From the human T2T-CHM13v2.0 reference genome, Homo sapiens, in assembly GCF_009914755.1 (NCBI RefSeq), contig NC_060934.1: a DNA stretch of 64,000 nt. One strand, 5' to 3'. The position numbers were made by a program, and so were the translations under genes. The notes beneath the pieces were generated by a model. That model ran no database searches. It was not told the origin of the DNA and worked only from the letters and a program-made list of their open reading frames with translations. This document shows, in pieces, positions 14,358 through 64,000 of this stretch. The stretch's first letter is position 1. Each line of letters begins with the position of its first letter.

Positions 14358-15225
14358 TGACCACAATGAGACACCACTTCAGATCCATTAGAATGGCTCC
14401 TAGCAAAAAAACAAAATCACAAGTGTTGGTGAGAACGCGGAAGCATTAGAACCCTTGTGCACTGTTGGTGGGAATGTCAAACAGTGCATCACTATGGAAA
14501 ATTAAAACCAGAATTACCATATGATTCAGCCATTTCACTTGTGGGTATATACGCAAAAGAAGTGGAAGCAGGAACTTGCACAGGTACTCACACCCCCATG
14601 TTTATAGCAGCATTATTCACGATTACCAAAAGGTAGAAGCAACCCGAGTGTCCATCAGTGAATGAATGGATAAATAAAATATAGTGTATCCATGGAATGG
14701 AATGGGATTCAGCCTTAAAAAGGAAGGAAATGCCAACACATGCTACAACCTGCATGAACCTTAAAGACCTTATACTCAGTAAAATAAGCCAGTCACAAAA
14801 GCACAAATACTGTGTACTTGCACCTGAATCAAGTTCCTAGAGGAGTCAGATTTATAGAGAAAGGAAGTGGAATGGTGGTTGTCAGGGGCCGGGGACGGGA
14901 GGAATGGACAGTTTGGGTTTCATGGGGCCAGAGTTTCTGTGAATGGTGGTTGTCAGGGGTCAGGGGTGGGAGGAATGGACGGTTTGGGTTTCACGGGGAC
15001 AGAGTTTCTGTGAATGATGGTTGTCAGGGGTTGGGGGCGGGAGGAATGGACAGTGTGTGTTTTATGGGGCCAAAGTTTCTGTTTTAAAAGATGAAAATGT
15101 TTTGGAGACGGATGGTGGTGTTGGCTGCACAGCACTGAGCATGTACTTCATGCCACTGCTGCACACCTAGAAATGGTAAGATTGTAAATTTTATGTTACA
15201 TGTGTTTTATCACAGTTTTAAAAAC
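14358..15225 (+). mobile_element. L1MB-like 3' end
   Basis: accacaatgagacaccacttc...agaacccttgtgcactgttggtgggaatgt...aagcaacccgagtgtccatcagtgaatgaatggataaa...gtaaattttatgttacatgtgttttatcaca. Confidence 0.9.
14870..15082. repeat. Three tandem copies of a 71-bp unit inside the L1 3' UTR
   Basis: Units start at 14870, 14941 and 15012 (gaatggtggttgtcagggg...agagtttctgt). Confidence 0.93.
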
Positions 15226-17070
15226 GAAGCCCAAATCCCTGGAGGAAATCTTGAGAAATATTTTACATGAATAGAAATTAGAAGGAACTCAAGGGTGGCA
15301 GGCAGGCACCGCCTCCTGATGAAAATTTGTCTCCTACATCAGTGCCTTCCACATAAATTAATGAAACCTCCCAGACAGTCTGTTGGTGACTGAGAGGGAA
15401 CCAAGGGGATCTCAGGGAGGGTCATGGGATGTCTGAGTTTGTCAGGATAAAGCATCCCTTGCCCAGGAACATGCAGGCGCTGGCTGGCAGCCCGGCTTCT
15501 GCTTCGCCAGGAGTCCGGGCATCGCGGAGATTCATCTTCGTCCTGGCACCCACCATGCGGTGCCCAGCCAGCCCTGCACTTGGTCGGCCCTGCTCGAGAA
15601 TCCAACCTGGTTCCATTTTCAATTTTGGAAGCGTTGTTGCGGATTAAAAACCGGTCAAATGATGGGAAAGAGTCAGAGAGAACAGCTGCTCTGTCCCCGC
15701 CATCCTGCCAAGGCCTAAATGAGCCTCCAGGAAGCTTCAGAGAGATGAGGGATGCATTTCCCAGCAGGAGTGATGCATGGCCCAGGAATGGCAAGTCACG
15801 TCGGGGGCTTGTGGCACCCTGGGGAGGACCTGTCAGTGCAGCGCCAACTGGCTGCCAGTGCCCATGCACACACGATGGAAACTTGATCGGTCAAGTTTCT
15901 GATGAAACTTTAAGGACAGTAACAATAGGGACATATGACAACCTTGGCTGTTCCTAATCACGTGGTTAATCTATTTAGCTCTTCGTAAAACGATGCACAA
16001 GGACGGGATACACGAAGCAACCAGTCATTTGCTGTCACCTGAGTGTTGGTACATTTTCTCCACCTCCTTTTTGCCTGTCTTTTACCTGTAAACTTCATCT
16101 TCATTTGAATAGCTTAAAGAGCACTGAACACTTTGGTATATAAGTCAAAGATGGAACTTCAAGATTGTCTTCTCCCGACCCATGTTGAGGGAGCTGTCAA
16201 TCAATAGGTTGGGTGGATAACAAAAAATGAATTATTGTTTCTTGTCTGGCACAGGCTCAGCCTCAGCACCAAAGCCCAGGTGCCCCTCGGACACCTCAAC
16301 TTCAGCTGCGGCTTCCTCCTGAGGAGTTGGGGTAGGGCACCCTTCCCAAGCACCCTCCAAAGACCTTCTGTAAAACCCTCAATTTCAAGGCTGTGCAGAG
16401 CCAGATGTGGGTCTCTTTTGATGGGGTAACCATTTGCCCAGGCAGGTCTTCAGGCAGGAGAAAGCAAGCCCACCTCTGTCTCTGAGGCCACTGGATCTAA
16501 AGGATCTGTCAGTGTTGGCTTCTCTCCAAGCGAGACTTCTTTCTGCTGGAGCAGAACAGTGCAGTGGAGGTGGGAGGCAGGAGGATGCCCCAGGAAAGAG
16601 GCGAGACACGAGACATGAAGGGTGGGAGGGGGAGGCTGAGTCAGGGGCTGCTAGTGGCTGTCACCATCAACAGCAAATAACTTTGGATATGGAGGTCTAG
16701 GTAGAATTTTCATTGTTGTTTGACCTTATTTACTATTAAAATGATATTAAAGCATAATTTAGACAATAGTTTTTTCTTTGTTTTTTTTACACAAAGATGT
16801 TTATTTTTGGTGTTCCCATTCACTTTTTATTCATATCTGCTCAGAGTAGCATGCTTTCTCATTTAACATGAGAAAATAATAAAAATAATTGTGATGGCTA
16901 TAATGTACATACATAATTTTAAATAGTTTCAAAAAGTAGATCTAGTTGACATATATTTAAGAGTTCCCTCTGCTGCAGATTTTAGGTTATTTTTAATCTT
17001 CAGTTTTTATGAAAAGATAAGAAATATATATCTTTGTAAAAAGAGTTTTTTTTTTTTCATTTTGAGTTAA

Positions 17071-18999: not shown

Positions 19000-19645
19000 A
19001 TTTTAATTTGTTATTGAGGTGTAATACATACAATAGAATGTGTAAAGGCTATTACTAATCTTCAATGCACAGTCTGATAAAATTTTATCTCTATGTACAC
19101 TCTGATCAAGATATACAGCATTTCCAGCCCCTAGAGGTTTCCTCCATTCCCCTCTTATTCAATACAACCCTCCCCAAGGGAGCCACTATCCTGAGTTCTT
19201 TCATCTTCCATTAGTTTTTCTTGTTCTTTACTTTTATATAAATAGAATCATGCCATATGTACTATTTTGTGCTTGGCTTCTTTCCCTCAACATAATAACG
19301 TAGTAACAGAGACTCAGGCTTGTTACATGTATCAGCAGCCCGTTTTCCATTCAGTTCCACGGTTTGTTTATTTGTATTCCTGTTGATGGACGTCTGGATT
19401 GTTTCCAGTTTGGGGCTATGACAAACAGGGCTGCTATAACTATCCTTGTCCTTTTTGGACATGTCAACTCATTTTTCTTGGATATGTCTAGGTGTGGAAT
19501 TACCGGGTCATAGGGTGGGTGTATGTTTAGCTTTAGTAGATCGTGCCAAGCCCTTTTTAAAAGTGGTTGAACTAATTTACACTCCCACCAGTAGTATATT
19601 AGTAGCTCCCATTGCTCCGTATCTTTGCCAACACTTGGCCTTGTC
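19000..19645 (-). mobile_element. Old L1M (L1MB8/L1ME-like) 3' end
   Basis: ttattgaggtgtaatacataca...gatcaagatatacagcatttccagc...gttgatggacgtctggattgtttccagtttggggctatgac...ttacactcccaccag. Confidence 0.85.
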
Positions 19646-19949
19646 TCACAATTAATTTAATATGAGTATATGTAAGGGGTGTGTGTGTATGTCCAGGGTG
19701 AAAGGGGGAATAGGATGTCTAGTAAGTGTTGAGATTATACTGGGTGCCTTAACTCTTTAGGCCTGGGTTTCAGGAACGATGGTCAGAGATGAGGGGTGGG
19801 GTCCATCTGGAAGGTGGTGTTGGCCGGGAGTGAGCCAAGGGATGAGACACTCCCTGAGGACAGTGAAGCAGGGTGTTTTCAGCACCACTTGGAAACCTAC
19901 ATAAGATGCCCAAATACACAAAGAATATTTTGGAAGAATTTTTGCCTTA

Positions 19950-20447
19950 CCTGGAGTTATAAGTCAAGGTGCTGGCAAGAAATATATCGCATACTGGCAT
20001 TAGTCTGTTCTTTCACTGCTGTAAAGACATACCTGAGACTGGGTAATTTAGAAGTAAAAGAGATTTAGTTAGCTTATGGTTCTGCTGGATATACAGGCTT
20101 CTACTTCTGGGGAGGCCTCAGGAAACTTACAATTATGGTGAGGGTGAAGAGGGAGCAAGCATGTCTTACATGGTGGGAGCAGGAGGAAGAGAGCAAGGGG
20201 GAGGTGCTACACACTTTTAAACAACCAGGTCTCATGAGAACCCTATCATGAGCCAGCACTAGGGGAATTATTCTAAACCATTAGAAACCACCCCATAATC
20301 TAATCACCTCTCACCCGGCCCCACCTGCAACACCACAGATTATAATTCAACATGAGATTTGGGTGGGGACACAGAGCCAAACCATATTAATACTCAAACT
20401 GGATAATCTGGGAAGTTAATAAAGGGACTATTTACAAGAGGTGGAGG
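19950..20447. mobile_element. Fragment of an ancient ERVL-class LTR split by the MST insertion (subfamily uncertain)
   Basis: Rejoined flanks gcaagaaatatatcgcatact/caaactggataatctgggaagttaataaagggactatttacaa resemble the element at 29940-30420 (gcaggaaacagg...agtttagtaaggggactatttacc). Confidence 0.5.
19996..20389 (-). mobile_element. MSTA-like MaLR solo LTR
   Basis: Full LTR text; 5-bp TSD atact at 19991-19995 and 20390-20394. Confidence 0.92.
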
Positions 20448-20544
20448 CATGGCCAGTGCCTATGTTATCATTTGCATTTGTCATGATTTGAATTTTCACC
20501 ATAGCCCCAGCTCTGTTGACCTGAAATCACAAACATACTTCTCT

Positions 20545-21057
20545 AGTCCTGTTGGTTTTGCCTCCCAGCATCCTCTTATCGTCTTTCTGATCACCACATC
20601 TCCAACTCTCCTCTACGTAAATGTGCCCACCAAAACAGCCAATGTATGTGGGTGAAATCTGTGTCCAAGGCTAAGCCAAGCAACACATCCAATCCCCTTG
20701 GCTTTAGTAATTAGCTTAGAGACAGGCTCATAAATCAACTCATGCTGATGGGGCCAAAAAGATTTACTCATGGAACTTTTGTTGAGGTATTGGTAGAGGT
20801 CAGGGTGCTCTGTGTTCTGAGGATATGGTCTTGAAGCCTACAGGAACCCTGCAGGGAAGCTGAGAACAAAGCCAGGGAAGAAGAGCTGAGAGAGACACCC
20901 TGGTGGCATCGGCTAAGTCATGGGCTGGCCAAACCAGGAGCCCAAATGTACCTATGTACTATGTGGCTACAGAAAACAATTGTTCCTTGCTTAGGCTTAA
21001 GCCAGTTTTCACTGTGTGTTCTGTTGTTTGCAACCAGAAGAGTTCTACCTAATGCAG
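20545..21057 (+). mobile_element. Old MLT1 MaLR LTR (MLT1J/K/L-like)
   Basis: 3' end ttaagccagttttcactgtgtgttctgttgtttgcaaccagaagagttctacctaatgca matches the old MLT1 terminus. Confidence 0.6.
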
Positions 21058-21307
21058 AGGAAGCTGGAGTTTAGGCAGTCACTGATCACCATATTTTTTC
21101 CCATTTCACATATTTTAGGATTTAAGTTAAACACTGGTTATGAAGTAGATGTTCCTCACCCACCACCAGTAGGCTGGGCTTTGCACTAGTGATGTGATTG
21201 CACTTTTAGTCATCACCCCATACCTAGTATTAGTGGCAACATGCTCATGAAAGAGCTTGGCTGTGCCCCAGATAAGTATAAAGATGGCTGGTAAGAAGCC
21301 AAGGCTC

Positions 21308-21658
<351 letters not shown>

Positions 21659-21714
21659 TTACATTACGCATGAGATAAAGCCAGTGCGGCAGGTGAGAGG
21701 TGAATGTCGAATAA

Positions 21715-21945
21715 CAGAGAGGCACTGTGTGGTCTAGGCAAATGTACCTACACAGTGAGATGCGAGAGAGCTAGGCTCAACTTCTCCCTAGCCATGTCAG
21801 CCCCCAGTACCTCATTCAGTTCTTTTGCCAGAAAATGAACACTAATGACCTTATCTTGAAGCTTTGAGTATTGGGAGAATTCAAGTTAAATATGATGCAT
21901 GCAACAAGCATGAAACAGATGCAGGGAAAGAAGTAGATTCCTCCC
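21715..21945 (+). mobile_element. MIR SINE, diverged
   Basis: gcactgtgtggtctagg...agctaggctcaac...gaaaatgaacactaatgacc...tgggagaattcaagttaaatatgatgcatg. Confidence 0.5.
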
Positions 21946-22279
21946 ATCAACAGAACAATTTGCAAGAGTATGCCTTGCACATGGTTTCATGTCACTTCCT
22001 CTCTGTTGTGCTTGTATGTGCACGTGTGTGATTATTTTGTTTGTATTTTTATTGTTTTGAATTTCTCTTTCTCTCCTCTGGCTGATTTTGCTGGAGGGGT
22101 TAATATAGTTCTACTTTCCCCACTCTTAACCCCAAGAGGTCACTGGGGAAGAAAATATCTCATTGGTGAGACACAGGTTTTTCTGGGTGAGAGACAAGTC
22201 ATAACAATATGTGCAAGGGTGGGGCTGGCTAGGACTTTCAGTTTGGAACCTTCGTTGCTATTCTATTGGTATGGCTGAG

Positions 22280-23240
22280 ATGTAGACAGTCTAACGTCCT
22301 TGCTGGAATGGCCCAATCTGTCTTCTTGCTTCAAAGCGGAATATTTTTCTGCCTTTCAACTCAGCTGGGCTGCAGGTTGTTCACCATTTGCCTATTCATC
22401 CTTATTGTTGTGGTGAAATGCAAATGAAGTCGTCTTTGATGTATTAGAAGCATAATAGCAATTTTCTGACTTTCTTTCCCAGAGCCAAAGTCTTCCCAAA
22501 CCTCAGCACCAGGGAGATGATCTTAAGAGTGGTAGGATTGTCCTGGAGCCAGGCTGGTGAACATGTTACCTTTTCTGTTAGGAGACATTCATTATCAAAT
22601 CAGATTGTCAGGGAGTAACCTCGAGACTCCAGGAGAGAAGAGAAGGGATTTTTATTTTTGATGCAGAAAGTCGGAAAGTAATTAGTATGCATTAATTACA
22701 AATGACAATGATAATAATAATAATAATAATGACGTTTTGAATTGGTGCCTAATATGACAGTTGATTTGAGCTCCTTGCCAGACTTCATATCTATGGTTGC
22801 TGCCTTTCAAGTGGTCACGCATCCATTTTGAGATATGACAGTGATAGTCTCTTTTGAAACATTTAATTGCTGGCATTGTTTATTGAGAGAATTTTATAGC
22901 CTCTCTTAGGCATCTAATTTCACACAGCATCTGCTATGGATGTCACTGATTTAAGTATTTAGAAGAGAGAGTAGAAAGTAAATGGAGAAAATAAAATATT
23001 ACATAATTCATTGCTATGGAGGGACAAAAGAGTTTTGCTTGGACAATCAACACCTTAGAAGCTGCCGTACCCATAATCAAATGTGCGCCATATTTTGCCA
23101 AGTATCCCGGGCTGTCACATCTGCCATCACCACCTGTGATCATTTTCTTCCTCTTTTGCGCTAAATAATCAATTACAAGATTCTAGGTTTTTCTCCCTTT
23201 ACTCATTTATTACTGGCTCAAGACCTTGCTTCCAGTAGTG
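22280..23240 (-). pseudogene. Degenerate DDE transposase fossil, Kolobok-like
   Basis: Colinear minus-strand motifs: LEPVINE from 23222; GDGRCDSPGYLAKYG 23131-23087; RDYHCHISKWMRDHLKGSNHRYEVWQGAQ 22852-22766; NECLLTEKVTCSPAWLQDNPTTLKIISLVLRFGK 22593-22492; RLH..AFHHNN ~22432-22404; stops and frameshifts between blocks. Confidence 0.78.
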
Positions 23241-23439
23241 CCAGAGTGAGGACGCAGGAGCTTTCTGCTTCGGAGGACAGGACAGACGATTTGTGAATCA
23301 TTAATTGGGCTAAGGACAGATACAGTCATTGACAAAGTGTGTGAATATCTGCTTTGAAAATGCTTTTAAAGTATAAAAATTCACAAAATTCCATGCTGCT
23401 GAAGTTTTGGGGCTGAGCCAGGCTCTCTCTGGGCTATCA

Positions 23440-23870
23440 CTGGGAGGGTTAAATTGTCACAAACTTTCTAGAGAGCAATTTGACACATGCATTGCTTTAC
23501 CATTTAACCCAATATTTTCTATTCTATGAAGCCATCCTAAGAAAATGATCAGTGCCTAACACATATTAGATGCTCGAACATGGTGAACTGAATGAAAATA
23601 TAAAGAAGGATATACATAAAAAGAAATGCATTGTAGCACTAATCCCCCTCCACTAAAAGAAACAATATAAATGTTCAGTAAAAGGCAACCATTAAAGTGT
23701 AATGGAGTATTATGTGGTAATCAAAAATGAGGTTTACTGAGTTTCTAATAGGACAATGATACTTATAAAATGTTAAGCAAAAAGGAATATAAAACTATGT
23801 ATTCTGTGACCTCAAGACAGACATGCATGGGAAAGAGAAGAGTGGTAAAATTATACCCTCATAAAAATTG
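23440..23870 (+). mobile_element. L1ME-like 3' fragment (continues ~24170-24240)
   Basis: gggagggttaaattgtcacaaactttctagagagcaatttgaca...aatggagtattatgtggtaatcaaaaatga. Confidence 0.55.
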
Positions 23871-23871
23871 A

Positions 23872-24169
<298 letters not shown>

Positions 24170-24644
24170 AAAATTAGTTCTTTATATCTCTGTATTGTTC
24201 AAAGTTTCCACAATGAACACACATTATAAAGATCTGTATTTGTGTTAACAATGTAATACTTTAAATATGCATGAAGTAAGTAAAATATTCTGCAAAAAGA
24301 TCCCATTACTCTAAGAAATATACAAAAATATAAATTACTCTCCATCATTCTCACATCTACCCTTGTAAACGGATGCTAGATTTTCTTTAGAGTGTTTTAC
24401 AGAGAGAAGGCAGGCATCATATCTGAAGGTCTTTGTGGTACCCACATGGTCCTAGTTACATGTAAAGGCAGACAAGAAATAGGATCGAAACATGGTCTGG
24501 TCACATCGGGATCTTCATGGTACACTGCGGGGTCACATGTATACCCAAGTCAAGCTGGTGCAGCGGAGCTATTAAAGAAGTGCTTGGTAGAAGATAACCT
24601 GAGACTAAGGAGATTTCTGATTGAGGGGTGGTGTGCTCTAGATT

Positions 24645-24805
24645 TGAGATGTTGAAAATGTGACTTGTGGACTAACAACGTCACCACCTGGAAGCTTATT
24701 AGAAATTCTGAATTCCAGGCCCCCCAGACCCACTGCACTGGAATCTGCTGTCAGTAAGATCCCCGGTTAAGCCCAAGGTTGATCCAAGGTTAAGAGGTGC
24801 TACTA
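24645..24805. mobile_element. MER5-like hAT-Charlie MITE
   Basis: caccacctggaagcttattagaaattctgaattccaggcccccagacccactgcactggaatctgc...aagatccccgg. Confidence 0.7.
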
Positions 24806-27429
24806 GAAAAGTCGCCTTGGGGAAGTGGATGCTGGGATGCAAAACCCTGGGGAGAATACATGTGGTTACCAGCACTCCTTTTTGGGAAGGAGAATTTGGT
24901 AGTCAAGGTAACTGATTTTCTGCAGGTGGCAGGAAGTACACTTTACCAAAGCTTTCCAAGCTGCACCAGGCCTCTTGAGATGATGTCTGAATCAGCGCTC
25001 ATCGAATGGGTGGTGAAGAAGTGAGGGTGGAGACCGGTGGGAGACCTGGAACCTGGATGGGCTGCCAAGCTGGATGATCCCTTTTTCGATTGCATGGTCC
25101 CAAAACCAGGGCTGCAGAGGCGAGTCCCTCAGAGGGGACAGCGACCCTAAAATTCTTTGACAGCCCTACTTGTCTTAGAATGATGAAATTGGCCTGTCTT
25201 TGTATTTGTTTTTCCTACAAAAAGAAATTGAACAAGTGTATCCAAGGTGCCCAATGTGAAGTTCTGCACTCCCTCTGGTAGTCAGTGAAGGCAGCCCCTC
25301 TAATTTGAGTTCTCTTTCTAAACATCCCGGTCAGATGCTTCCCTGTCTTTCTGACCACCTGTAGCAAACCCACCTGTGAGTCCCAAGGTAGGCTGCATGG
25401 TTACAGATGCCTATTTTCAGACCTGTGACAGTTCCCATAGAAGAAATCTAGAAAAACAAGAAAATAAGAAACAACCTGTGAGTCTTTGACAAAGCTCAAT
25501 GGATTCAATGTAAAGGGTTGTCCTTTACCTGAGAGTAAGATCTTTTATTTTCTTTTTTGCTGTTAACATTTTTTTAAATAATGAAGACTATTTTTCTCAT
25601 AATGTTCTTGACAAAAGAAAAAGTTGGCAAACGTGCCATTGACTTCTTTTCTTAGGTCTTTCCTAGGAACCTGGGCATTTTAAAGAAGATGCAGTTCCCA
25701 TGTTGGTGGAGATCCGGTCCCATCTGTGAGGGAACTAACAGTCACTCAGTGGAAGCGGCCATGTGGCGCATTCCTAGAAAGTTGACAGTGCCTTGACTAC
25801 CCCACCTCCAAAAAAATCCTCCCCGACGAGATTTCATGAGCCACAGTCACTTCTCCATTGCAAGCTGAAACTTGAACTATTTCTAACTTAAACAATAGGA
25901 ATAATACATTATATTCTAACGTTAACTACTGTAATCTTATATCAACAGGGGGCTCACCACCCTTTGTGATATAAACAGCACTGGCCCAAACTCATTTCCA
26001 TTCCACGGCCTGTGGAAGCCAGGAGAGCTGTGCAAATTCCAGATCTGGGGCCCCGGAGCTTCAGCACTGTTGGTCACTCCATCCCATCCCTGTTTCTCCT
26101 TCCCTGGAGCATTTCAGTTCCGATGGCCTCGCTATTCTGAACACAGCTGTCTCCCTTCTGCCTTCTTCTCCCCCCTCCCTACTCTCTCTCCTAATACCTT
26201 GGGTCTCACCTCTCTCCCCTCAAGGGACATATCAAGCCTTCTCATCAGCACACACAGTACCCTCACTCATCTGTGGCCAGCCATTAAGACAATAAAATGT
26301 CACACTGGCACACTACTGTTAGCAAGAAATGAGATGTGACACCTCACCCCTGACCGTGACACGGTGGTAGATCAAGACCTGGCTGGGGGCTCACGACTTC
26401 AGCTGGGGTTGGCCTTCTGAGGAGCTCTTGTCACCTGGGCATTGCAGGGACCTGAGGCCTGAGCCTTGAGTCCTGCAGGACTGGACTTAGCCCTCAGATG
26501 CTCACCCAAGCAGGCAGCCACATGCCTCTCGATTTTGTCTACAGCTGACCAGGGTGCGTGTGGTTGAATCTGTACCCTAAGCCTTATTAGACTTCCCCCT
26601 GTGTGTATAAATGAGTCTATTGTCCAAAGTGGCTGGGGGTGCCTTCTGGCAGATCTGGAAAAAGATCTGGATCCTTCCATATCTGAAAGTGACCTCAGCT
26701 TTTAGGCTTCAGTTTTCTGAGTACAGAGTCTTTACCTGATGCTCACAGCTGCTCACAGCCTTTCCACTCACGCAGCCTTCCATGTGGGAAATGTTCCTCA
26801 TTCCTCAGTGTCCCTGTCACAGAGAATAATGTCATGCCACAGCACACTGCCCAGGGCGCAAGTGCTTGGCGCTGAGAGAGACCCAAGGAGTCCAAGCGCT
26901 CAGCTGCTGCCAGCTTGCAGGAGACGTGCAATTGCTCAGGCTTATCACGGCGCATTTGAAAGCCTGCCTTCTTGCCATTTCCACCTTTTCACTTGGGTAG
27001 GATTGTATTTTCCTCGAATCTCCATTTTCCACTGTGCTCATGGCACAGACAGAAGCACATCAGACCTGTAACTTGAATCACAAACACCTTGACATTTCGT
27101 TCCAGAATTAGAATGTCCCCAAGGCTTATGCCAGAGAGCAAGACAAACCTTTTGGATGTGTTTTAAGAGGTGGCCTCTGCTACACCCCAGGGCCTACTTC
27201 ATCTGGGAATTGAGATGAATTCGGAAAGTGCCTATCATATCCCAAACTGGGCCCCAGGTCCTGGGGATAAAAAGATGAATAAAGGCAGGAGAGAGAGACT
27301 GTAAATAAATACCTAGCATGCAATTTGTAAACATACGTGAAAATACTCTAAAAAGAGAAAGAGAAGCAAACCCACTGTGCTTATGTGGTTCAGAGTCAGG
27401 GTAAATGGTCCCTGAAGGTAAGAATTGGG

Positions 27430-27750
27430 CCAGGGTAAGCCAGGCTTTGCTGCAGAAACAAGCCTGCACAATTTCAGTGGCTTGAAATGTCATGGTTATT
27501 CCTCCATCTGAGGACATGTCTGTGCGGTGTGGGTGAGCTCTGATCCACACAGGGGTCTGGGCTGATGGAATCCTTAAACTGGTGTTGGATCAGGGAAAAG
27601 GAAGAAGCAGAACAGACATTGGCTCTTAAATGTTGCAGCCTGGAAGAGACATACATCCCTTCTACCTGCATGTCATTGGCCAAAGTAAGTCATGTGGCCA
27701 AGGGTACTTGAGAATTTGGGAAAGTGCAAGCTCATCATCTTCCAAGAAGG
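27430..27750 (-). mobile_element. Old MLT1 LTR fragment
   Basis: gctgcagaaacaagc...tttcagtggcttgaa...atcccttctacctgcatgtcattggccaaagtaagtcatgtggcca. Confidence 0.6.
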
Positions 27751-61908: not shown

Positions 61909-64000
61909 GAGGTTCCACACACTTCCGGAAGGCTGGATGCACTCACAGCAACCTTTGCCCACCTTCACTATTTGATCACTAACAGTATGTTTCCATCTCC
62001 CTAGGTGTATCAGGAACTGAACAGGATAGAATAAAATTAATACGACATGCATCTCTTGAGTGTCTACTCTGTATCAAGAACCATGCTAACTCAAAAGCAC
62101 AGTGGTGAGCATATTACACGCGGATTCTGCCCCTGCTGCTGCAAACTCACCAAAGAACATGCTGGACACACAGCTCAGAAAAGGGCCAGGGGCCAGGCTG
62201 CAGTGCATTCTGCCAGGGCTCTGGAAAGCAGGGGCCATGCTGACTGAGGATGTGAGGGAATGCTTCCCGGTGGCAGTAGCATTTGAGGTCTTGCAGGATA
62301 GAGGATGACCATTCCAGGGAGGGGCACTGAGCACAGCATGGACATACAAAGCTGGTGACACCAGGTCAGAGGAAACAGACACACTCAGCTTCCCATGAGT
62401 GCATGAAAGATCCAGGCTGGAGCCTTCTCTGGGAGGAAGTTGGTCTGGGGTGGGGCCGAGGGGGCCGAGTCTCCCATACCTGAGGGAAGAGACGGTTAGA
62501 CGTTGCACGTGTGTATTCTCATCCCTCCGTCTCCTCTCTCACGAAGGCATTTTCTTGAGTGCTTCCTCTCATGAACACTCTTCAGTGGGCCCACTGCACA
62601 CCATTCCTCTGCCTCCTTTTTCTCCACCTACTAGCAAGGCTAAGCTCCCAGCCTGCCCTAGCCTGGACACCTGCTGGCAAAAATCTGCAGCTCCACTGAC
62701 TGGCCTCAACCTGAAATCAGGACCTCAAAGGACAATCAACCATGCAGCCAACTCACCTGCCCTGCTTTTGTGTATTTCCTCTCCCACTCTCCAACGTGAT
62801 TCTTCCACACCATCTTCTCCCCCTCTATCTTCTCAAACTCTTCATTTGGCATCCCCCTACCAAACTCCCAGCCAGGACCTTATTCTTATGTCACTGAGCA
62901 AAACCATTAGATGGGGACCGAGCATCTTCCCACCACCACCTCAGCCCGTCACCTGCATCTGTCTCTACTTTCATGTCCTGGAGGAGGAAGAGCCTTGCTC
63001 CCATCAGAGGGAGCTCCTCCTCCTGGGTGGGGGGAACTTCTTTTGCCTTTCCGGGACTTTGCATCTGCAATTGTGCCCCTGTCTCTGGCATCGCTAATCA
63101 TCCCCATTGGATAATGGCCTGTAGCATGCATGAAGATGTCTTAAGGAGACTGTCCTCTGGGGCCCCTCATCTCTATCCAGCGATGACTACGCTTCTTTTC
63201 CGGGCCAACCAAGGCCCCTGCTGGGTGAGGTGTGTGTTCATGTGTTGGTCCCCAATGTCCCTTGATTGAAGAGTGATGTCTATTTTTTCTGCTGGCGCGC
63301 TGGCCAGGTGGCTGCCTCTAGCTCCCCTGGCTCCCCTGCTGTGATAAAAATCTCCCCAATCCCAGGCTTTTGTGTCCTGCAGCAAAACAGCCTTGCCTTG
63401 CTCCTCTCCTAGTGGATCCCAATCAGGCTTTATATTTTAGCTAAAGACTCACTTCCTCAGCGCACCTGTTCCCCTGGCCACCGACGCCAACTGTCCCTCC
63501 CATTAGAGGCTTCCCCTGCGTCTCTGTAGACCTGGCACCGTGAGAGTGTCAGATTTGAGTGGTGTGTTTTTTGATATGAGAATGTTGGCTGAAAGTTAGA
63601 AGACTTGCTCATGAGCCCCTTGCTCCTCTGCGCAGGAGCCTGAAGCCAGCCCCAGTGGCTTTGTCCTGACCGTATGCCGCTGCCCTGAGGACCACACTCT
63701 CTCCTGGCTGGCAGCCCCGCTCCAAAGCTGCCTGAGCACTTCCAGCTGGAACTTGGGGTGGGTGGACATCCCTTTCATGAATTGTCAGTTTACCGTTGAA
63801 GAATGGGAGGAGGGAGAATTGAAAGGAAAGGAGAGAGGGAGGAGTGCCTTGTGAAGATGGAGGCGGAGTTGGCACCTCACTGCTGCAGCTGAGGTGTACC
63901 AAAGTGTCACCAGAAGCTGGGACAAAGCCAGGGATGGCTCCTCCTTCAGAGCTTCAGAGGAGCCCACCTTACCAACACCTGGACTCCTGGTCTCCAGAGC

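What the first reader, a model, noticed from the sequence alone, without database searches (positions are those of the whole stretch)
22280..23240. Fossil Kolobok-like DDE transposase coding sequence in a primate genome
Seen on the minus strand, in order: LEPVINE*REKNLES/VIDYLAQKRKKMITGGDGRCDSPGYLAKYGAHLIMGTAASKVLIVQ (23222-23039, one frameshift); CEIRCLREAIKFSQ*TMPAIKCFKRDYHCHISKWMRDHLKGSNHRYEVWQGAQ (~22921-22766); NECLLTEKVTCSPAWLQDNPTTLKIISLVLRFGK (22593-22492); RLH/AFHHNNKDE*ANGE (~22432-22380); SKKTDWAI (~22331-22308). From recalled family knowledge these parallel the colinear motifs LEP.I...W, GDGRCDSPGHSAKY, TDRH..I.K.MR...H.FDVWH.AK, NKRLLKDI.KLSP..QTSSLE.FHS.ILRFAPK and RL.LAALH.NEN of transposases common in fish, amphibians and invertebrates, which I assign to the Kolobok superfamily. 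The first two catalytic Asp positions appear retained and the Glu position reads Lys (AAG). To my knowledge Kolobok is barely represented among human repeats (UCON29 is the one I recall), so a readable transposase-coding relic is unusual. The superfamily assignment and the novelty are inference.
Basis: partly seen in the sequence, partly recalled or inferred. Interest (0 to 1): 0.85.

Follow-up and report, generated by a model that had tools for sequence, protein, structure and literature searches.

The report
Dead Kolobok-type transposase relic, human chr10
This stretch of human chromosome 10 is a real but broken leftover of a jumping-gene enzyme of the Kolobok kind, apparently the only readable one in the genome; it no longer codes for anything, and a relic of this kind has already been counted in print.

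Summary
About 480 bases (23240-22766, minus strand) are a genuine transposase fossil. tblastn with animal transposases gives one colinear match, E 1e-10 to 1e-13. Profile scores are 57 and 35 bits, against at most 20 bits in 152 control segments. The three downstream blocks, and so the "Glu reads Lys" claim, score no better than chance.

The relatives have a DDE triad, a DxxH motif, an H2CH zinc finger before the Glu, and often a THAP domain. Two papers use this combination to define Kolobok (PMC9587614, PMC6004289).

The relic keeps both Asp residues. It has lost DxxH (it reads E-V-W-Q), carries three in-frame stops and a frameshift, and keeps a 105-base intron-like insert at a family intron site. 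I found no second copy in the human genome.

Novelty is overstated. Frith 2022 (PMC9004415, Table 5) already counts one Kolobok-T2 protein fossil in human that RepeatMasker had not found, with no location in the main text. A roughly 50-90 base core looks unusually conserved among ortholog-like ORFs, which may hint at exaptation.

The parts
23200..23240 (-). Upstream end of the recognisable relic. The 'LEPVINE' stretch corresponds to the family's 'ylvPavekvw' segment. It is followed by a stop and a frameshift before block 1.
   Evidence: Translation. The ortholog-like ORF P0002 reads through this stretch in one frame and aligns to HMM positions 260-317. It is not significant in human DNA alone: 13 of 152 controls match the N-terminal test, and the best hit lies elsewhere.
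23039..23182 (-). Exon-like block 1. It holds the first catalytic Asp in G-G-D-G-R-C-D-S-P-G (Asp codon 23128-23126).
   Evidence: phmmer gave 98 hits at E<=1e-3. HMM E 5.8e-11. 57 bits against a control maximum of 19.8, 0 of 152. Alignment shown.
22934..23038 (-). A 105-base intron-like insert with no family counterpart. It starts right after ...I-V-Q, with GCA where a GT donor would sit. It ends in a pyrimidine-rich run plus AG (22935-22934). It does not change the frame and contains two stops.
   Evidence: Sequence. tblastn needs about 26 extra columns here. 57 of 217 family proteins read V plus unrelated sequence right after the same L-V-Q, which is what read-through of a GT donor gives. 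3 of 12 ortholog-like ORFs have V at that position.
22766..22933 (-). Exon-like block 2. It holds the second catalytic Asp (R-D-Y-H for family T-D-R-H, codon 22849-22847) and the decayed DxxH signature, which reads E-V-W-Q (22786-22775). There is one in-frame stop at 22882-22880.
   Evidence: HMM E 1.5e-3 at profile positions 353-385. 35 bits against a control maximum of 16.9, 0 of 152. Same frame and same match as block 1.
22600..22765 (-). Unalignable stretch where the H2CH zinc-finger region should lie. It is about 130 bases shorter than the family spacing and contains an (ATT)n run at about 22709-22730.
   Evidence: The family has about 100 residues between DxxH and the next motif. No profile match here.
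22308..22593 (-). Their positions fit the expected order, but they are not statistically supported. Treat them as possible further decayed relic only.
   Evidence: numbers in the observation check.
21304..21585 (+). Alu-like insertion downstream of the relic, with an A-run at 21552-21577. It is not part of the relic; it bounds the old DNA.
   Evidence: Inverted-repeat pairs I1-I3 with the stretch at 23872-24164. 'Alu' is my reading of the printed arms. Masked in the hub's table.
23872..24178 (-). Alu-like insertion upstream of the relic, in the opposite orientation. It is not part of the relic.
   Evidence: hub mask 23979-24178.

Best explanation
This is an inert, single-copy fossil of the transposase gene of a Kolobok-superfamily cut-and-paste DNA transposon, lying on the minus strand.

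Shown:
- About 480 bases (23240-22766) still read as the stretch from just before the first catalytic Asp to just after the second.
- That stretch is split by a 105-base intron-like insert at a site where many family members appear to have an intron. The relic is therefore a genomic copy of the gene, not a processed retrocopy.
- It cannot make a transposase. It has one frameshift and three in-frame stops within the solid part. The DxxH signature reads E-V-W-Q. The zinc-finger region is shortened and unrecognisable. No THAP or N-terminal part is detectable.

Inferred:
- The element inserted in a distant ancestor, because ortholog-like ORFs exist in other unnamed records.
- It lost activity and then decayed largely neutrally.
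- Two Alu-like elements landed beside it later.
- Its original mechanism would have been DDE-catalysed excision and TTAA-targeted integration, as described for Kolobok.
For: - tblastn of 10 family proteins against the whole 64-kb window gave one colinear match, 23173-22766, in one frame. E was 1e-10 to 1e-13 for 7 of the 10. Two more matched block 1 only, at about 1e-9, and one matched at 7e-4. Nothing else in the window scored below E 0.2.
- HMM E 5.8e-11 and 1.5e-3. 57 and 35 bits, with 0 of 152 controls as high.
- Family architecture in 22 aligned proteins: first D 21 of 22; TDRH D 22 of 22; DxxH D 22 of 22 and H 21 of 22; H/H/C/H 20, 20, 19 and 20 of 22; E 18 of 22.
- Pfam: PF20700 at 46.6 bits against a cut-off of 26.5 (P0069). 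THAP at 88 bits plus MULE at 44 bits (P0023). By my count, 25 of the 120 listed relatives carry THAP PF05485.
- PMC9587614 (passages): Kolobok shares C/DxxH with hAT, P, MuDR and Dada. Almost all Kolobok have a zinc finger between that motif and the last E, which MuDR, P and hAT lack.
- PMC6004289 (passages): Kolobok transposases usually have DDE, THAP and H2CH.
- Intron site: 57 of 217 family proteins.
- Single copy: the DNA and peptide searches of the genome found only this locus. Three family proteins each found it as top hit, at E 0.018, 1.06 and 1.6e-4. Six other places turned up, all at E>1 and none in more than one search. The three of them that the profile matched are L1 ORF2 look-alikes.
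Against: - No named Kolobok reference (Repbase or Dfam) could be compared, so the superfamily call rests on architecture and two papers' definitions.
- My attempt to link the family to the Xenopus Kolobok paper through its cnidarian LOC numbers found neither among 17 listed hits.
- Pfam labels the domain 'Mutator-like'.
- Element ends, TTAA duplications and RR/YY termini could not be found. Only Alu-like pairs appeared.
- The C-terminal third, including the catalytic Glu, is not demonstrably present.
- Strong conservation of a 16-30 residue core among ortholog-like ORFs does not fit purely neutral decay: mean pairwise identity is 0.89 in the core, against 0.34 and 0.24 beside it.
- The genome searches score only the best candidates, and one used a stricter first look. 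'Single copy' therefore means none found.
Confidence: 0.8

Rival explanations
1. Part of the relic, about 50-90 bases around the first-Asp motif (roughly 23182-23093), has been exapted as a conserved non-coding (regulatory) element. That would explain why it is still readable. This is compatible with the best explanation for the element's origin.
For: Among 10 ortholog-like ORFs, pooled identity to human is 94% (151 of 160) in the 16-residue core and 76% just upstream. It is 39% just downstream and 31% in the intron-like part. All-pairs means are 0.89, 0.67, 0.34 and 0.24. Frith 2022 reports that old TE protein fossils in human are often strongly conserved and lie in gene deserts (PMC9004415, abstract and section 10). 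The hub table shows no gene in the window.
Against: The ORFs were found by a search that the core itself largely seeds, so there is ascertainment bias. Their species are unknown. Only protein-level data were available. Some flank differences are frameshifts (P0008, P0011). RefSeq lists no functional element here; the nearest annotated enhancers are at 15138-15639 and 63207-63708 (hub table).
Confidence: 0.25
2. It is the unitary pseudogene of a once-domesticated Kolobok-derived host gene that was lost in mammals or primates, not a dead transposon copy.
For: No second copy was found in the genome. The intron-like structure is retained. The core is conserved. Massive Kolobok domestication is documented in Xenopus (PMC6004289).
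Against: No long, closely similar protein appeared among the 98 phmmer hits; the close ones are ORFs of 49-231 residues. The stop after ...K-Y-L-N-Q is shared by human, P0002 and P0215. PMC6004289 states that no orthologous domesticated Kolobok genes are known in other vertebrates.
Confidence: 0.1
3. The relic belongs to a different DDE superfamily (MuDR/MULE, P, or an unnamed THAP-bearing group), not Kolobok.
For: The Pfam hits are to 'Mutator-like transposase' PF20700 and MULE PF10551. No named Kolobok sequence was compared.
Against: According to PMC9587614, the zinc finger between DxxH and E is absent in MuDR, P and hAT. It is present in 19-20 of 22 family members. None of the 17 proteins scanned matched a P-element transposase family. 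Family proteins found no other human copies, whereas MuDR relics number in the hundreds in human (PMC9004415, Table 6).
Confidence: 0.1
4. The similarity is due to chance.
For: Only the weakness of blocks 3-5.
Against: E 1e-13. 98 database hits. 0 of 152 controls for each of blocks 1 and 2.
Confidence: 0.01

Closest known systems
Kolobok superfamily transposases (Kolobok-T2 / Kol0-type of vertebrates and invertebrates; Xenopus XKol-Tpases)
   Same: The relic's relatives show the DDE triad, DxxH after the second D, an H2CH zinc finger before the E, and frequently an N-terminal THAP domain. These are the features named in PMC9587614 and PMC6004289. The relic keeps both Asp residues and the surrounding motifs.
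   Different: The relic is broken: stops, a frameshift, DxxH changed to E-V-W-Q, and the zinc finger, Glu region, THAP and termini not detectable. No named Kolobok sequence was compared directly.
The single pre-amniote 'Kolobok-T2' protein fossil in human counted by Frith 2022 (PMC9004415, Table 5)
   Same: The same kind of object: a Kolobok transposase-coding fossil in the human genome that RepeatMasker had not found. Only one locus turned up in my genome searches as well.
   Different: The main text and the preprint give no location, so identity with this locus is unproven. I have no evidence that this locus predates amniotes.
UCON29 (the only Kolobok family among human Repbase repeats, PMC5753468 Table 5)
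   Same: An ancient Kolobok-derived sequence in human.
   Different: UCON29 is listed only as a repeat consensus. Its nature beyond that is my recollection. Whether this interval is annotated as UCON29 could not be tested, because no Dfam or Repbase library is available. No other copy was found at DNA level.
MuDR/MULE relics in human (Ricksha; the name is from PMC5753468)
   Same: A related RNase-H-like DDE fold with a C/DxxH motif; weak Pfam MULE and Mutator-like hits.
   Different: The family has a zinc finger between DxxH and E, and THAP. No dispersed human copies were found.

Membership tests
Kolobok superfamily | DDD/E catalytic triad in the transposase domain | tested here: inconclusive
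   Family: D 21 of 22, D 22 of 22, E 18 of 22; PF20700 above its cut-off. Relic: both Asp codons are present. The Glu position cannot be aligned better than chance.
Kolobok superfamily | [quoted passage not shown] | tested here: met
   Family: F-D-V-W-H, with D 22 of 22 and H 21 of 22. The relic aligns at this place but reads Y-E-V-W-Q, so the site is present in decayed form.
Kolobok superfamily | Zinc finger (H2CH) between C/DxxH and the last E, absent from MuDR, P and hAT (PMC9587614, PMC6004289) | tested here: inconclusive
   Family: H 20, H 20, C 19, H 20 of 22. Relic: the region 22765-22600 is about 130 bases too short and gives no match.
Kolobok superfamily | N-terminal THAP DNA-binding domain (PMC6004289) | tested here: inconclusive
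   Family: 25 of 120 listed relatives carry PF05485 (my count); P0023 scores 88 bits. Relic: 0 of 100 neighbouring ORFs (19760-26701) match THAP, so it is lost or was never present in this copy.
Kolobok superfamily | TTAA target-site duplication and 5'-RR...YY-3' termini with inverted repeats (PMC9587614) | not testable with these tools
   The ends of a single, old, truncated copy cannot be located. The inverted-repeat scan of 19000-27500 found only the Alu-like pairs and short chance-like pairs.
Kolobok superfamily | Direct sequence similarity to a named Kolobok reference (Repbase/Dfam) | not testable with these tools
   No such library is held. The indirect link through LOC numbers quoted in PMC6004289 was not found among 17 hits.
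P element / THAP9-type transposases | P-element transposase domains | tested here: not met
   None of the 17 family proteins scanned against Pfam matched a P-element transposase family.
MuDR/MULE | [quoted passage not shown] | tested here: not met
   The family has H/H/C/H there in 19-20 of 22 members. The MULE and Mutator Pfam hits are partial.
UCON29 repeat family | DNA similarity to the UCON29 consensus | not testable with these tools
   No consensus is available. The genome DNA search found only the locus itself.

The most novel reading that the evidence does not exclude
The relic survives as the only readable Kolobok transposase fossil in the human genome because a roughly 50-90 base core around the first catalytic Asp motif (about 23182-23093) was exapted and has been under purifying selection across mammals. 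It may also be the same pre-amniote Kolobok-T2 fossil that Frith counted. That would make it a conserved non-coding element of transposase-coding origin in the gene desert next to LINC01163.
Probability: 0.25. Interest if true: 0.5.

Novelty: new member of a known kind. Interest (0 to 1): 0.3.

Why it matters
It documents, with coordinates and anatomy, a coding relic of a DNA-transposon superfamily that is almost absent from mammals. That adds direct evidence that autonomous Kolobok elements once lived in our ancestors' germline. The relic also keeps an intron position shared with invertebrate and fish relatives. The practical value is modest. It improves repeat annotation of an unannotated stretch and offers one candidate for a transposase-derived conserved element. 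It does not open a new kind of biology, because genome-wide fossil surveys have already reported this class in human.

Tried and rejected
- Pfam scan of the six relic ORFs gave nothing meaningful; the best were DUF1999 at E 0.015 and a Cas9 domain at E 0.11, both below their cut-offs.
- A Pfam PF20700 search of the human genome found nothing, not even this locus. It rang in 0 of 14 control genomes, so it is uninformative.
- A profile search of the human genome by alignment was not accepted. I used three single proteins instead.
- Six other places turned up in those three searches, all at E>1 and none in more than one search. The profile matched three of them (chr4, chr6, chr11), and those are look-alikes of the L1 ORF2 C-terminus; 'L1 ORF2' is my recognition of the printed peptides. 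The chr7 place shows no motif. The chr9 and chrX places scored E>7 against the profile.
- The C-terminal and N-terminal extensions of the relic were rejected as unsupported.
- A Pfam scan of 100 neighbouring ORFs for THAP, KolX or other domains gave 0 relevant hits and one chance CotH hit.
- The search for terminal inverted repeats gave only Alu-like pairs.
- The second homolog search (P0002) returned 5 unnamed records, so the species range of the ortholog-like ORFs stays unknown.
- The third (P0134) did not recover the LOC numbers quoted in PMC6004289.
- Literature searches for Kolobok with T2T, hg38 or Dfam, and for 'protein fossils' with Kolobok, gave only PMC9004415 and PMC5753468 as relevant. 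On these searches, no paper describes this locus.
- Yuan and Wessler 2011 is not held.
Its list of fossils may name this locus.

Full report
**Observation.** The reading itself is accurate.

**Is it more than chance?**
- The 79-residue ORF 23182-22943 was searched with phmmer against 1.84 billion representative proteins. It gave 98 hits at E<=1e-3, 6 at E<=1e-10 and 1 at E<=1e-30.
- The consensus of 22 of them reads GGDARCDSPGHSAKYG ... TDRHSQVKKYMR ... FDVWHVAKG ... KLSPxxQTxxLExFH ... AALHxNEN.
- tblastn of 10 such proteins against the whole 64-kb window gave one colinear match in a single frame, 23173-22766. E was 1e-10 to 1e-13 for 7 of the 10. Two matched block 1 only, at about 1e-9, and one at 7e-4. 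Nothing else in the window scored below E 0.2.
- A profile of 74 full-length relatives scored the block 1 ORF at E 5.8e-11 and the block 2 ORF at E 1.5e-3, among 3879 ORF pieces of the window.
- I wrote a frameshift-tolerant profile-to-DNA aligner and used 152 other 766-base segments of the window (both strands) as controls. Block 1 scored 57 bits (control maximum 19.8) and block 2 scored 35 bits (control maximum 16.9). That is 0 of 152 in each case, with two different profiles.
- The 'LEPVINE' stretch upstream is not significant in human DNA alone. An ortholog-like ORF without the frameshift (P0002) aligns through it to profile positions 260-317.

**What is not supported.**
Block 4 scores E 140, although it aligns at the correct profile place.
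The figures are 19 and 35 of 152 for block 4, and 16 and 27 of 152 for both together. For the whole C-terminal part they are 64 and 21 of 152.
- One weak positive: block 3's best pairwise alignment fell on the E-motif in 20 of 56 proteins, against 1-15 in 20 shuffles. Its mean score was no higher than the shuffles.
- The statement that the catalytic Glu reads Lys is therefore unproven. The N-terminal part is not detectable either (13 of 152).

**What the family is.**
- Pfam gives PF20700 'Mutator-like transposase' at 46.6 bits against a cut-off of 26.5 for P0069. It gives THAP at 88 bits plus MULE at 44 bits for P0023.
- Of 120 listed relatives of P0075, 25 carry THAP PF05485 and 26 carry PF20700 (my counts). 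They come from molluscs, ticks, fish, cnidarians, echinoderms and amphioxus.
- In the 22-protein alignment the first D is kept in 21 of 22 and the TDRH D in 22 of 22. A D-x-x-H follows (D 22 of 22, H 21 of 22). Then come H, H, C, H in 20, 20, 19 and 20 of 22, and then the E in 18 of 22.
- PMC9587614 (passages read) says Kolobok shares C/DxxH with hAT, P, MuDR and Dada. It also says almost all Kolobok transposases have a zinc finger between that motif and the last E, which MuDR, P and hAT lack.
- PMC6004289 (passages read) says Kolobok transposases usually have DDE, THAP and H2CH.
- The family therefore meets the published architectural definition. I could not compare a named Kolobok reference, and an indirect link through LOC numbers failed. 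I put the superfamily call at about 0.85-0.9.

**Anatomy of the human relic.**
- Both Asp codons survive (23128-23126 and 22849-22847).
- The DxxH site reads E-V-W-Q (22786-22775).
- The solid part has a frameshift before block 1 and three in-frame stops.
- Between blocks 1 and 2 lie 105 bases (23038-22934) with no family counterpart, and they keep the frame.
- This insert begins exactly after ...I-V-Q. In 57 of 217 family proteins the same L-V-Q is followed by V and then unrelated sequence, as expected when a gene model reads through a GT donor. In 74 the exon continues.
- Human has GCA at that spot, and 3 of 12 ortholog-like ORFs have V. The insert ends with a pyrimidine-rich run and AG.
- I read this as a retained ancestral intron. 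It argues for a genomic gene copy and against a retrocopy.
- Downstream, the zinc-finger region is about 130 bases too short and holds an (ATT)n run.
- Two oppositely oriented Alu-like elements (21304-21585 and 23872-24178) bracket the old DNA. No terminal repeats or TTAA ends could be recognised.

**Copy number and age.**
- DNA and peptide searches of the whole genome returned only the locus itself.
- Three family proteins each hit this locus (E 0.018, 1.06 and 1.6e-4). Six other places turned up, all at E>1 and none in more than one search. The three that the profile matched proved to be L1 ORF2 look-alikes.
- These searches score only the best candidates, so the result means 'none found', not proof of absence.
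- At least 12 short ORFs from unnamed records share the relic's particular sequence, including its non-family flanks. The relic therefore exists at what look like orthologous sites in other genomes. Their species are unknown to me.

**An unexplained feature.**
- Among those ORFs the 16-residue core around the first Asp is 94% identical to human (151 of 160). The 14 residues upstream are 76% identical, the next 18 are 39%, and the intron-like part is 31%.
- All-pairs means are 0.89, 0.67, 0.34 and 0.24.
- Ascertainment by the search contributes to this, and some flanks are frameshifted. Even so, the contrast is large and suggests local constraint.

**Comparison with what is known.**
- PMC5753468 (passages) lists UCON29 as the only Kolobok family among human Repbase repeats.
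[quoted passage not shown] Exactly one of them is 'Kolobok-T2', and RepeatMasker had not found it.
- Its location is not in the main text or the preprint, and I could not see the supplement or the Zenodo data.
- This class of object is therefore already in print, and this locus may well be that entry.
- My literature searches found no paper that describes this locus.

**Verdict.** This is a real and carefully observed, but ordinary, molecular fossil: a dead Kolobok-type transposase fragment, about 480 bases solid, single copy as far as I could find. The downstream blocks and the Glu-to-Lys claim are not supported, and the novelty is overstated. The open point worth a look is the unusually conserved core.

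Noticed in passing
window 23093-23182 (minus strand): Among ortholog-like ORFs from unnamed records, the 16-30 residues around the first-Asp motif are far more conserved than the adjacent residues and the intron-like part: pairwise identity 0.89 and 0.67, against 0.34 and 0.24. This may be a conserved non-coding element.
   Followed up: partly
window 22934-23038, and family proteins P0012-P0098 and others: 57 of 217 family proteins read V plus unrelated sequence right after the conserved L-V-Q. That points to a widely conserved phase-0 intron in this transposase family. The human relic's 105-base insert sits at the same site.
   Followed up: yes
L005 (chr4), L006 (chr6), L007 (chr11): The family profile's lysine-rich stretch after DxxH weakly matches the C-terminal part of L1 ORF2 (my recognition of the printed peptides). 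This can produce false 'Kolobok' hits in genome-wide protein searches.
   Followed up: yes
window 21304-21585 and 23872-24178: Two Alu-like elements in opposite orientation (arms 82-86% complementary, about 2.3-2.6 kb apart) bracket the relic. Together they form a large inverted repeat.
   Followed up: partly
window 22709-22730: A short (ATT)n microsatellite lies inside the stretch where the transposase zinc-finger region should be.
   Followed up: no
protein P0004 (unnamed record): This 58-residue ORF joins a plus-strand translation of the locus (as in ORF 23007-23168) to the minus-strand relic peptide. That suggests an inverted join or an assembly artefact in that record.
   Followed up: no
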